This document shows positions 22,564 through 57,000 of a stretch of 64,000 nt of DNA, piece after piece. The stretch covers positions 411,721 to 475,720 of the forward strand of contig CM120648.1 in the NCBI GenBank assembly GCA_051362555.1, in the 5' to 3' direction. The position numbers and the translations under genes are program-made. The stretch comes from Lingula anatina (Eukaryota; Animalia; Brachiopoda). Each line of letters opens with the position of its first letter. The first letter of the stretch is position 1. The notes under the pieces are model-generated. The model made no database searches, was not told the origin of the DNA, and saw nothing but the letters and a program-made list of their open reading frames with translations.

Positions 22564-25500
22564 TTACTTTGGTAAACAAAATCGTATTGCAAGTCCAGCA
22601 CCTAATAAAGCAAATGAAAACAAAAATGCCAAAGTTCTTCTAAAAATTAACTGCCCCTTAGACAGCTGCCCATGTTTGATCTCAGGGACTTCTCTGTCAG
22701 GTAGGACGGTATAAGGTGACATGTAGCGTTTCTGAGTAGCACACCTACTGCGGGGGCGTCTTGTCCTGGACCGGCTCCGCCTGGTGTGTAATAAAGGCGA
22801 TGCACTGTCTCTATTAGCCTCTGACTCGCTGTGGTAATCTGAGTACTCTAAAAATGTAAGATGAGCTTCTGGTTAACTTAGTTTCACAACTAGTGTATCC
22901 TCTTAAATCGTTCAGTAATGGGATAGTGTTACCAATCTAACATAAATTACCTTAATACAAAGAATATCTAACTTAAATTACTTCAAGTCATGCTAAATGC
23001 TTAGCAAAACAAAATTATCTCCATATAAAGATGTCTCATTGACCCAAACACCAATCTGCCTGACTACCCTTACACCAGTCTGCCTGAATACCAACACCTG
23101 AAAACAAAAACACCCACCTGTGCCTATATACCAACACGCCCATTTGTGCCTGAATACCAACACACCCACCTGTGCCTGAATACCAACACGCCCACTTGTG
23201 CCTGAATACCAACACACCCACCAGTGCCTGAATACCAACACACCCACCTGTGCCTGAATACCAACACACCCACCTGTGCCTGAATACCAACACACCCACC
23301 TGTGCCTAAATACCAACACACCCACCTGTGCCTAAATACCAACACACCCACCTGTGCCTAAATACCAACACACCCACCTGCTTCTGAGTCTGACTGGAAC
23401 CTCTCTTGCACCTGCTGGTCATCACCTGCAGCCTCGTCTATCACACCTGCTCTCACCTGGGCCTGAGGAGATGGACAATAGTTATTTAGTAAACCTCATC
23501 TAACACACCTGCTCTCACCTGGGCCTGAGGAGATGGACAATAGTTATTTAGTAAACCTCATCTAACACACCTGCTCTCACCTGGGCCTGAGGAGATGGAC
23601 AATAGTTATTTAGTAAACCTCATCTAACACACCTGCTCTCACCTGGGCCTGAGGAGATGGACAATAGTTATTTAGTAAACCTCATCTAACACACCTGCTC
23701 TCACCTGGGCCTGAGGAGATGGACAATAGTTATTTAGTAAACCTCATCAGGGATGGATGGAAGCCCTCTTCTGAGTATTCCAGATGATGGTCAGAAATTT
23801 TCAATTTTACACTGACGGGGATCCAATTTTTGTGGGAAGATGGTCAAAAATGAAGGATAGATCAACACAGATACTGTGGAAAACTGTCTAAAAATATCTC
23901 CAGAGCTGCTCCCACTCATGTCCAGAAAACGGAAACCAAACAATTACTTTGCAGGCCCTCTTGGGGCCTGGAAAAGACTTGATCTGCTGCAAAATTTGAC
24001 CACAGTTTTACGATTAACATTAGACAAGAGTATAAACTGATATATACCTTTAATACTTCTTTATCCCACTTAGTAAAGCACTGGACCACAATAAAAGCTG
24101 CCAGGGATTCTACTGCAAGCGCAATAGCAAGTCCCATCCAGAAGCCTTAAAGTAAATGTTATATTTAAATATTTCAATCACCAAATCTTTGACCAAAAAT
24201 CTATCAGGTCAGAAAGAAAGAATTATATACTCATAATATAGGTTTCATTACAAATTATAGAACAAAGAATATCAACAGGTTTGAATGTTATTTGTAAATA
24301 TACACATGTATGTTTTCCAAAAATTTTAAACTGAATAAATAAAAAAAATTAAAAAATTATCAAATTGAGAAGTGAGTCAGAAAGATGATGGGTACAGATA
24401 ATACCAGTAGAAAGACCTATGAGATAATAGTAGATAAATATGATGACAGGCCTAATGGACTGTCAATACTTACCTTTCACTGTGAGATCAGTCAGAAAGA
24501 GGACAGGTATAGATATAGGAAGGCCTATGATGTAATAACAGACAAATATGATGATAGCACCAATGGTTTGTTTGCCTGCTCCTCGTAGGATTCCATTACA
24601 AACTGCCTGGAAAAAAAAGAAAAGAAAAAAACAGAAAATAATAGTAGGATCACATACCAGTGTGCTAAACAGTTTATTTCAAATATTTATGTAATATTTT
24701 GAAAAACCAAGCAAAAAAAGGCCTTGTGAAATTATTGGTATGTTCCTTTTTTTCTATGCAAATTAATTTATTTTGGTTGTAAATGTTCATTAAGTAAGGG
24801 GCATTCCTGGATATTATACAAAATTATTGCATCATCCTTTTCCTAAACTGACTGAATGTTTTTGCTGCTCACATTTCTACCAAATCACATTCCAAAAGTC
24901 AAGATGGGGTCCAAATAATTATTTTATGCTTCTCTAACAAAAACAATGCCAAAAAATATTTAAACAGCATAACACTGCTAAGATTTATTATGAGAAATGG
25001 CCTGCAATGATTTATTTTTCAAACGGTCCGTTATTCATTTTCATGTAAACATATCATATTAATCACTTACGGCTGTGCCATCAAACACTGTAAAAATTGC
25101 CAGTACAGGGATTGCATCTGCTGCCAATGATATCACCTTTCTACAGACAAAAAAATTGTTTTTTAAAAATATGACTGACATGCTATAATAATAAATAATT
25201 AAAAACAAACACTATAATTCTATAAGAGGTAAATGACAGAAAGTCACTCTTTAACTCTCATTTTTAACTTTACTTTACAAGAATGAAATAAAACATAATA
25301 AGTTAACTCTATTTAACTCTAATAAGCAATCTAATGATTACTTTTCCCTACATTTAAGTCAAATAATGTCCAGTTAAGTTCTTTTTATAAGATTTCAAAC
25401 TTCAATAGCTCTTTTATTAAAAAAATGAGTATTAAACATAACCATATGTTAAAGATGGAATACTGAAATCTTACACCTGCCAAGGCCTTTCAGAAATACA

Positions 25501-54000: not shown

Positions 54001-57000
54001 CTCACTCTCCTCCTATACGTCTCGCTCTCAATAAGCATAAAAAAAACCCTTTGCTCCATACGCGATGTTAAAACAAAACATTATCTCGAGACAATAAAAT
54101 GAATCCTATCACACTGCAGTACTACATGCAGCAAACTTGAAAACAAATACAATTTTTAAATGTTGAATTAAATCTCTGATAATGAAGCGCAAAAAAATGA
54201 ACTACCTTCAAATATTGCCAAAAATAAATTCAATTATTAAATGGATAGGATCTGTTACCGCTATTCATATCATTAAACATTACAAGTGTTTCATGTACGG
54301 GAAAGATTGCACTAGAGTTCTGGAGCCAAAGTGAAAGTGCATAATGACATTTTCCCGTAGTGTTTCGCTTTAATTTAACGCATATACAAGTATTATGTCA
54401 ACATCATGCTACTCGTTGTGGAGATATCAATCAACAAAGAAATGCTGCTACTTACCTATCTGACAATTCACACCCGTATAGCCACCAAGACAGCGACACG
54501 TGTATCCATTGACGCCATCTTCACATACGCCGCCGTTCTGACACGGCTCCGAGGCGCACTCGTCACGATCTGAATACAAGATGTGCTGTTGGTTATAACA
54601 GGCATGTTACCGAGTGTTCGGGTTTTAACAATTCTGGATAATGAGAACAACCTGCTTCATCAGTTTTTATTTCCGGCCTTGGGACACTTTCAGATAAAGT
54701 CAATGTTGTCTTGAATTTCTATTGACCATCAGAATAATTTTGATGACCAATTAAGACGTTTGACATGAATTTCATGTTCAAAAAATCTTTTTATCGCTTG
54801 CAGTCTTAATTAAAAAAAAACTGTGAAATATGTAGGGCCTATTCATACATTCAATATTTGCGGTGAATATTTAAGCTCCCATCGAATCAATCGGTTTTCG
54901 GCGTGTTTATTAATTAATTATTTCCTATAACGGTACTATAGTTGTATGTAAATTCTGCTATTGGAGCCACACACATACATCTTAAATAATATACTAAAGT
55001 ATTTTACCTATCTGGCAGTTAACGCCTTCGTACCCGGGAACACAGTTGCATGTGTAGCCGTTAACCTCATCGTTACACGTGCCGCCATTTTGACACGGAG
55101 AGGACAGGCATTCGTTTAGCTCTGGAAGTAACAGGTTGAAGGCAATGCCATGGGTAATGTCATATAAAAATAACACCCATAAACGAGTAAGATAGTACAT
55201 TGTATTCAGTATGGACAGAGGAATGATAATAATGGAGGTAAGTTTCCACTTTCCAATGGTGGATCCATCAATTTGCTCAGTGTTAAAACCTCTGAAACTC
55301 TTAATAATCTTGATAAACTTTTTTTTTCAAAATGTAAACGTGACTCACATACCATTCAAATAGAACACTATCCATAGATATACACCTGTTAAAACCTACC
55401 TGTCTGACACTGCCTGCCAAAATAACCCGGACGACACTGGCACCTGTACCGGTTGACCTCATCCACGCACCTGCCGCCATGTTGGCACGGCTCAGACTCA
55501 CACTCGTTAGTTTCTAGACAATACAAAAGCATGCACAGTCAGGACATTATTAGCGTCAGAATTGTCACAAAGAAAACAGAAAACCGCTGCATTCACGTAA
55601 ATATTTACTTTTTATCTTATCTTAATACACGCAAACCATTAGAACCGTTGCGTTCACGTAAGTATTTTTTTCTTTTTGTAACTTAAAATATTTTGTATAA
55701 ATACAAGCAAACCGTAATGTAACATGGTACTACAGAATAATGTGTGTATTAGAATATAAATGAAACAAGAAATAAAAGTACCTGTTTGACAGTTCAACCC
55801 GACGTAACCAGGGAGACAGACGCAGGTGTAGGCATTGAAGGCATCCACGCACCGCCCACCATTCTGACAAGGTCTGGTGTCACACTCGTCACGCTCTTAA
55901 TAATATGTGGAAAGGATTGAATTAACTGAGTGAAACAAACCAAGCAATATACCTTAAAATCTGACATTTTATTTCAGTGCTCCATTCAGTATTTGCATAA
56001 ACGAAGTATGAGCAATATAATTGCTTTGGATATATTATACGGTGTTCGGTTTTGGCGAAGATCACGTAAGCATTTAAAGCTACTGAAAATCTCGGAAAAC
56101 ACACTTTTATCAAACATATTCTTATTAAAGGCTACAGCTCGTCTACTACATCTATTTCTTCCATTCACACACAAATAATCACCCACGCAATTTTTCGTCA
56201 GATAATGCCACCCGATGCTAATGCAGCGAGGGAAAAATGTGCCGCATACTGGAACCAGTTCCGACTCCCTATCAGCGCTCACCTAGTTGGCAGTTGACGC
56301 CAATGTAACCCTCTACGCAGAGGCATGTGTACTGTCCGTCCCCATCCACACATGTACCACCGTTCTGACATGGTTGAGACAGGCACTCATCAGTCACTAG
56401 AAGCAAACGTAAGTTGTTTATTTATACAGCGATAATTAAGGCACTACGGGTATAACATGTAATAATTTATCTAAATATACTCTCTCGCCACGGGTCAGAA
56501 CTGAGGACAGTGACCTCACAATGACCTCACAGTTACATCGCTGCTACCTCACAATGACCTCACAGTGACGTCACAATGACCTCACAGTAACGTGAGATCT
56601 ACCTCACAACAGCATCAGTGACGTCATAATGTCCTCACAGTGACGTCACAATGACCTCATAGTGACGTTACATTTATATTACAATGATTTCACAGTGATC
56701 TCACCTATCTCGCAGTGGACGCCTCCATATCCTGATGGACAAATGCAGGTATAGCCGTTGACCTGGTCCACGCATGATCCTCGCTGTTGACACGGTTCCG
56801 ACTGACACTCGTCCACATCTGCAGAATACAAGAAAATCCATGTTTTTGTGTATTTTAAGATTAAATCAAAAATTTTAGATGTTCTGTTTTATTTTGTTAG
56901 CCTGTATTGTCGCTGTGTGCATTTTAAATGGATGTCACTAATTTCCCTTTAGGTCAAAAAGCATGGGAGATTAAGCCTGTAAGTACAGGAGTATGTAAAT

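What the first reader, a model, noticed from the sequence alone, without database searches (positions are those of the whole stretch)
23085..56704. Intronic tandem repeats are repeatedly built from the host genes' own splice junctions (CAG|GT cores)
Seen directly: at least seven independent repeats or duplications in two unrelated genes contain an exon-intron junction or a CAG|GT core on the coding strand. These are the 26-nt (23085-23380, donor), 62-nt (23442-23748, acceptor), ~75-nt (29820-30020, acceptor), 26505-26540 (acceptor echo), 48-nt (34468-34712, TTTACAG|GTATG), 48-nt (52379-52618, donor) and 11-nt (56508-56704, GTGAG donor) repeats. Established: tandem duplication of AG|GT proto-splice sites is a proposed route to intron gain (Rogers model). 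Inference: this genome may have a splice-site-anchored duplication process, or selective tolerance of such duplications, that keeps producing alternative splice sites, micro-exons and new introns.
Basis: partly seen in the sequence, partly recalled or inferred. Interest (0 to 1): 0.8.

Follow-up and report, generated by a model that had tools for sequence, protein, structure and literature searches.

The report
Brachiopod splice-junction "mirage" repeats
In two genes of the lamp shell Lingula, short pieces covering exon edges have been copied head to tail into the neighbouring introns, yet the RNA examined is spliced normally; this repeat type is already known from lancelets and human genes and is likely tolerated duplication debris rather than a source of new exons or introns.

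Summary
The window is Lingula anatina DNA. All seven repeats exist, but only five cover a splice junction: the 62-, 72- and 26-nt arrays and a 122-nt echo in a MATE transporter gene, and the 48-nt array in an EGF/chitin-binding gene. The 11-nt array starts at a donor without clear exon sequence. The 48-nt array at 34468 lies mid-intron. RNA reads cross the four MATE junction repeats only by the normal joint; no micro-exon, shifted site or new intron was listed. EGF-gene splicing was not tested. Enrichment at junctions is weak here: 5 of 16 events against 3.1 expected, P=0.17. A CAG|GT bias is present (4 of 5 against 23 of 124, P=0.004), but the idea came from the same data. These are "mirage" minisatellites, described in amphioxus with the same Rogers intron-gain suggestion, with human parallels (F7, ABCA7, AGGT tandem repeats). 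This scan has noted them before in three other Lingula windows and at least 11 genomes. New member of a known kind; low interest.

The parts
22540..35500 (-). Host gene 1: MATE/SLC47-type transporter, 19 coding exons plus an upstream exon with donor at 35398 (5' end approximate)
   Evidence: Open frame, all introns GT-AG; two exons match Pfam MatE below the curated cut-off, E 5e-4 and 2e-4; joints seen in RNA
23097..23380 (-). 26-nt x ~11 donor array; begins at the used donor 23377, decoy CAG|GT donors in most units; 3 exon bases matched exactly
   Evidence: RNA joint 22847-23378 in 24 (X12) and 2 (X18) reads
23042..23092 (-). 24-nt two-copy tail of the 26-nt array; one copy is missing in DNA run X4
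   Evidence: table 4 (24 letters left out at 23048)
23432..23748 (-). 62-nt x 5.1 acceptor mirage (37 intron + 25 exon nt); each unit holds an acceptor, then donor-like CAG|GT 6 and 16 nt later
   Evidence: RNA joint 23461-24047 in 25 (X12) and 3 (X18) reads; 92-nt loop contig in DNA run X4
24366..24571 (-). Degenerate ~108-nt duplication of the 3' part of exon 24606-24474 into the following intron (not in the finding)
   Evidence: alignment score 89 against a shuffle maximum of 42 in 500; normal joint 24144-24473 in 11 and 4 reads
26387..26536 (-). Acceptor echo: 28-nt copy (24 identical) of the acceptor at 26395, 122 nt upstream; the copy reads CAG|AT
   Evidence: normal joint 26393-26720 in 49, 1 and 5 reads
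29826..30039 (-). 72-nt x ~3 acceptor mirage; decoy CAG|GT acceptors at 29924 and 29996 score below the true one at 29845 (9.2 and 7.6 against 13.7)
   Evidence: joint 29843-30441 in 55 (X12) and 84 (X13) reads, RNA depth 0 in 29863-30017
34468..34717 (-). 48-nt x 5.2 mid-intron minisatellite with sense CAG|GT in each unit; not at a used junction
   Evidence: loose ends join exon 33538 to the exon ending at 35398; the array itself was not covered by a read lay
45010..63853 (-). Host gene 2: 25 single-EGF exons plus 6 exons of a chitin-binding (CBM14-type) region; the gene continues beyond the window
   Evidence: open frame, GT-AG; Pfam EGF and CBM_14 on one exon each; no RNA laid
52372..52621 (-). 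48-nt x 5.2 donor mirage (44 exon + 4 intron nt); three identical decoy donors in frame (each would add 16 residues with 3 cysteines); the last copy's donor is GT>AT
56507..56704 (-). 11-nt degenerate array (~15-18 units) starting at intron base +1 of an EGF donor; no clear exon part

Best explanation
These are "mirage" minisatellites: tandem copies of exon edges that lie in the adjoining introns and are skipped in the RNA examined, and that likely arose by ordinary local duplication and likely persist because they leave the true splice site working. Shown: unit anatomy, position, and normal joints across the MATE repeats. Inferred: a 25-120 nt segment is duplicated by slippage or microhomology-guided repair (the EGF array has a ~10-nt near-match between exon and intron at its ends) and then expands by unequal exchange. 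Exon-internal copies are mostly purged. A copy across a donor falls downstream, where the first donor wins, as shown for human F7. A copy across an acceptor falls upstream, where only the last copy heads a full exon. Decoy use in most MATE arrays would shift the frame or meet a stop, and would likely be removed by nonsense-mediated decay.
For: Anatomy matches the published definition (PMC3087553 section 16; PMC3902484 passages). Only normal joints are listed across the 26-nt (24+2 reads), 62-nt (25+3), 122-nt echo (49+1+5), 108-nt echo (11+4) and 72-nt (55+84) repeats. Identity runs from 99% to barely alignable, and older decoys score lower than the true site or have lost bases, as neutral decay predicts. 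Ten of 16 non-exonic local duplications in four genes do not touch a junction or exon, counting the 34468 array, so duplication is common everywhere in these introns. The 62-nt array is present in DNA of another study (X4, 92-nt loop contig), and the 24-nt tail duplication is absent there. The first 62-nt acceptor read through meets a stop after 12 codons; 26-nt retention meets a stop after 6.
Against: Among arrays of about 3 or more copies, 4 of 8 span a junction against 1.0 expected (P=0.01, a subset chosen afterwards). Four of 5 junction events sit at CAG|GT junctions against 23 of 124 overall (P=0.004). Blind placement plus survival does not predict either. Four of the 5 events are in one gene (4 of 38 MATE junctions, 1 of 60 EGF, 0 of 26 in ALP and SCO1). 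The RNA test is shallow (6 to 25% of each run read, steady-state RNA, joints need 3 reads; 5 joints were not shown) and cannot see re-splicing that restores the normal mRNA.
Confidence: 0.72

Rival explanations
1. Self-erasing duplications: arrays built on AG|GT are kept more often because any decoy use leaves an insert that starts with GT and ends with AG, which a second round of splicing would remove. Some arrays would then already work as hidden, Rogers-type new introns.
For: CAG|GT at 4 of 5 junction events (P=0.004) and CAGGT within 25 nt at 5 of 5 against 26 of 124 (P=0.0003). The computed decoy inserts of the 26-, 72- and 48-nt EGF arrays, and of the 62-nt array through its +6 site, are all GT..AG bounded. 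A human study reports 8.4-fold enrichment of introns spliced at AGGT sites in tandem repeats and proposes that splicing out offsets the harm (PMC10809524, passages).
Against: Five events, and the hypothesis came from the same data. The 122-nt echo insert begins AT and the 108-nt echo is at AAG|GT. Single-unit inserts of 26-62 nt are far shorter than any modelled intron here (minimum 196 nt). No intermediate was seen.
Confidence: 0.13
2. Mutational bias: duplications start preferentially at or near splice junctions (splicing-linked R-loops or repair near exons), or at the CAGGT/ACCTG motif itself on either strand.
For: Higher-copy arrays favour junctions (4 of 8). Two more start 0 and 10 nt from a donor without spanning it (11-nt array; SCO1 25-nt array). 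The motif also occurs in two non-junction repeats (34468 sense; SCO1 coding 12-mer antisense). Unreviewed notes report stronger enrichment in two other Lingula windows (leads only).
Against: On all 16 events P=0.17, and on 14 after dropping a dispersed-repeat pair and a dependent tail P=0.07. One sense-CAGGT array among about ten non-junction events is weak against a background chance of ~0.024 per 48-mer.
Confidence: 0.12
3. The arrays are functional: they supply regulated alternative sites, micro-exons or extra half-EGF units.
For: Decoy sites are intact and score like real ones (62-nt acceptors 7.3, internal donors 9.6; EGF decoy donors 11.4). The EGF unit is in frame.
Against: No decoy joint was listed in four RNA runs across MATE. 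Most decoy uses frameshift. The EGF extension would add an odd number of cysteines (inference). Not tested for the EGF gene.
Confidence: 0.03
4. The arrays are assembly artefacts.
For: The 62-nt copies are 99% alike. The 34468, 52372 and 56507 arrays were not checked in reads.
Against: Units carry distinct substitutions. DNA run X4 of another study has a one-unit loop contig for the 62-nt array at 2.3-2.6 times flank depth, and raised depth over the 26-nt array.
Confidence: 0.02

Closest known systems
Amphioxus 'mirage' minisatellites (Adh3, globins BflGb6/BflGb9, troponin C, PGBD5). Seen: PMC3087553 passages and section 16; PMC3902484 passages. The Adh3 paper (Canestro et al. 2002, name recalled) was not read.
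   Same: Tandem units of 10-160 bp spanning either exon edge, duplicated AG/GT signals, normal splicing, copy-number differences, and the same Rogers intron-gain suggestion.
   Different: Host is a brachiopod, not a cephalochordate. Somatic instability was not tested here. No gained intron is evident here.
Human F7 intron 7 37-bp VNTR (PMC1557585, abstract read)
   Same: First unit spans the exon-intron boundary; identical downstream pseudo-donors stay silent because the most upstream donor is chosen.
   Different: Shown by mutagenesis in mammalian cells; applied to the 26- and 48-nt Lingula donor arrays by inference only.
Human ABCA7 intron 18 25-bp VNTR (PMC5954066, passages read)
   Same: Array begins at the donor GT, like the 26-nt and 11-nt arrays.
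   Different: There, one-unit retention and exon skipping are detected and vary with length; no such product was listed here.
Dual-specific AGGT splice sites in tandem repeats, UBC and VCX3A (PMC10809524, passages read); variable internal tandem repeats at human exon-intron boundaries (PMC2812944, passages read)
   Same: AG|GT inside a repeated unit can let the extra copies be spliced out; proposed route to new introns.
   Different: Those repeats are exon-derived and demonstrably spliced; these lie beside an existing intron and no internal splice was seen.

Membership tests
Mirage minisatellite | Tandem unit spans an exon-intron boundary | tested here: met
   Met for the 62-nt, 72-nt and 48-nt EGF arrays and the 122-nt echo; marginal for the 26-nt array (3 exact exon bases)
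Mirage minisatellite | Same feature, for the 11-nt and 34468 arrays | tested here: not met
   The 11-nt array starts at intron +1 with no exon overlap; the 34468 array is ~690 nt from the nearest junction
Mirage minisatellite | Copies duplicate the splice signal | tested here: met
   Decoy donors and acceptors score in the range of the window's 124 real sites
Mirage minisatellite | Regular splicing is not disturbed | tested here: met
   Only normal joints listed across five MATE repeats; the two EGF-gene arrays were not tested
Mirage minisatellite | Length variation between alleles | tested here: inconclusive
   62-nt loop depth is 2.3-2.6 times flank in X4 against 4.5 expected from the window, but contig depth is not a copy number; the 24-nt tail copy is absent in X4
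Mirage minisatellite | Somatic instability | not testable with these tools
   Needs single-molecule reads or small-pool PCR from one animal
Rogers-type intron gain | A new intron spliced between duplicated AG|GT sites | tested here: inconclusive
   No new joint listed; re-splicing that restores the normal mRNA would be invisible in these reads
Recursive splice site (34468 array) | AG|GT used as acceptor, then as donor, in nascent RNA | not testable with these tools
   Donor-like 8.8-10.3, acceptor-like only 5.6-6.8; host intron only 1859 nt; no nascent RNA available

The most novel reading that the evidence does not exclude
In Lingula, junction duplications survive preferentially at CAG|GT junctions because every decoy use leaves a GT..AG insert that is spliced out again. 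The arrays would be hidden, polymorphic Rogers-type introns caught in formation, which would make intron gain by tandem duplication testable at population scale in one animal.
Probability: 0.1. Interest if true: 0.6.

Novelty: new member of a known kind. Interest (0 to 1): 0.2.

Why it matters
As found, it extends amphioxus-type mirages to a brachiopod. I found no paper on them there, but the scan's own unreviewed notes already record them in three other Lingula windows. Practically, such arrays can mislead gene prediction and are natural tests of how identical splice sites compete. It would matter more if the CAG|GT bias held genome-wide and internal sites were used in nascent RNA, because the Rogers route to intron gain has few observed intermediates.

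Tried and rejected
No whole genome is held, so the genome-wide test could not be run; all statistics rest on 62 introns in four genes. The homolog search with the EGF exon plus array did not return this gene's own protein among the 120 of 828 hits listed, so it gave nothing on whether models include the 16-residue units. No RNA holder was listed by the index; raw-read runs were laid instead. The pseudo-junction control was dropped because it counts positions inside the arrays themselves; I replaced it by an event-based null. Two further scores (26 at acceptor 30831, 20 at SCO1 39540) were not counted: the 30831 echo near 31005 scored 28 against a shuffle maximum of 31, and the SCO1 one was not followed up. 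Candidate 5' UTR exons near 34005 and 34129 were rejected: RNA depth 0. A 34468 donor exon was not seen, but 257 loose ends were not shown, so a minor form is not excluded. Paper searches for a CAGGT-seeded minisatellite class and for recursive splicing in tandem duplications gave only F7 and the dual-specific-site paper. Supplements were not read.
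Full report
Source and genes. The single-exon receptor at 1782-2966 is 100% identical to a Lingula anatina protein, so the window is brachiopod DNA. I modelled four spliced genes by hand: alkaline phosphatase (minus, 9 exons), a MATE transporter (minus, 20 exons), SCO1 (plus, 6 exons) and an EGF-repeat/chitin-binding gene (minus, 31 exons). 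All give open frames with GT-AG introns only: 62 introns, 124 junctions, 32,399 intronic bases. Single exons match the expected Pfam families; the two MatE hits fall below the curated cut-off. Some 5' exons may be missing from the models. No whole genome is held.

The seven repeats. All exist. An unbiased scan for local direct repeats (offset 10-250 nt, simple repeats masked) found 17 events in the four genes, one wholly exonic. The 11-nt array begins at intron base +1 and holds no clear exon sequence. The 48-nt array at 34468 has a sense CAG|GT but lies about 690 nt from the nearest junction.

RNA. I laid runs X12, X15, X18 on 21900-27745 and X12, X13, X18 on 29553-34195; 6 to 25% of each run was read. 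Normal joints were seen across the 26-nt array (24, 0, 2 reads), the 62-nt array (25, 0, 3), the 108-nt echo (11, 0, 4), the 122-nt echo (49, 1, 5) and the 72-nt array (55, 84, 0). No joint into an array was listed (threshold 3 reads; 5 joints not shown). RNA depth inside the arrays was 0 to 0.36. Loose ends at the first coding exon (40 and 55 reads, agreement 1.0) run into the exon ending at 35398, so the 34468 array is skipped in the main form.

DNA. Run X4, from another study than the best holder, has a 92-nt contig equal to one 62-nt unit plus 30 bases at depth 253 against 97-112 on the flanks. The window's own copy number predicts 4.5-fold, so the array is real and may be shorter in that sample, though contig depth is not a copy number. 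X4 also lacks one copy of the 24-nt tail duplication at 23048.

Is it more than chance? The copies are true local derivatives: echo score 30 or more at 5 of 124 junctions against 0.03% of 3100 junction-versus-other-intron pairs. Whether duplications favour junctions is less clear. Placing each unit uniformly on collapsed introns gives 3.1 expected junction-spanners among 16 events; 5 are seen (P=0.17), or 6 with the 108-nt echo (P=0.06). Dropping a dispersed-repeat pair and the dependent 24-nt tail gives 5 of 14 against 2.4 (P=0.07), or 6 of 14 (P=0.018). Arrays of about 3 or more copies give 4 of 8 against 1.0 (P=0.01), a subset chosen afterwards. Four of the five are in one gene. This is not an independent test.

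Mechanism. Shown: anatomy, position, normal splicing in MATE, a range of ages. Inferred: slippage or microhomology-guided duplication, then expansion; the EGF array has a near-match of about 10 bases between exon and intron at its ends. Survival is inferred from where the extra copy lands. Downstream decoy donors lose to the first donor, as shown for human F7 (PMC1557585, abstract). Upstream decoy acceptors head no full exon. Read-through of the 62-nt and 26-nt decoys meets stops. The EGF decoys are in frame and would add 16 residues with three cysteines each. The main rival is that AG|GT units are self-erasing: the decoy inserts of four arrays are GT..AG bounded, and a human study proposes this logic (PMC10809524, passages). 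One-unit inserts are much shorter than the shortest modelled intron (196 nt), and no intermediate was seen.

What is known. Tandem repeats spanning exon-intron boundaries were named 'mirages' in amphioxus, with units of 10-160 bp, both boundaries affected, normal splicing, length instability and an explicit Rogers intron-gain model (PMC3087553, passages and section 16; PMC3902484, passages). I recalled the term before searching; the Adh3 paper was not read. Human parallels are F7, ABCA7 (PMC5954066, passages) and variable repeats at exon borders (PMC2812944, passages). Searches for a brachiopod report (listings only) found none, in a library that lacks most subscription journals. The scan's own unreviewed notes list 22 such findings in at least 11 genomes and three in other Lingula windows; I did not check them.

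Verdict. Real, partly overstated, and a new member of a known kind. Five of seven examples are mirages. No new exon, site or intron was detected where it could be tested. The CAG|GT bias is the one lead worth a genome-wide test. Interest 0.2.

Noticed in passing
window 30762-30830: The 69-nt MATE exon is skipped in frame in a minority of reads (joint 30491-31962: 10 and 11 reads, against 34 and 69 for inclusion at 30491-30762).
   Followed up: no
window 30767-30840: Seven X18 RNA reads (only 2 start places) go back 74 bases across this acceptor, as a tandem duplication of the junction would; may be an allele, a paralog or a library artefact.
   Followed up: no
window 31050-31110: Low sense-strand RNA depth in bin 30948-31102 (3.05 in X12, 0.62 in X13) over a possible AG..GT-bounded cryptic exon; likeness to neighbouring exons was not above shuffles.
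   Followed up: partly
window 16901-17480 and 41160-42058: Two inverted copies of a 161-nt satellite with a shared short-repeat flank, 551 of 573 aligned bases identical; likely a mobile or dispersed satellite.
   Followed up: partly
window 20000-21400: Broken single-exon GPCR-like frame with a ~460-nt tandem duplication (20440-20901 against 20901-21392, 427 of 459 identical); the GPCR label is from reading the translation, not from a search.
   Followed up: partly
window 37894-37950 and 39667-39764: SCO1 has an in-frame 12-nt coding repeat (A-T-P-A units) and a 25-nt intronic array that starts 10 nt after a donor without spanning it.
   Followed up: partly
window 61100-62990: Long plus-strand reverse-transcriptase-like stretch (LINE-type by eye) filling the 2.7-kb intron of the EGF gene; not searched.
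   Followed up: no
window 49860-51165: Element with GC-rich inverted ends and an internal 25-nt repeat in the 1.7-kb EGF intron; likely a non-autonomous DNA transposon (by eye).
   Followed up: no
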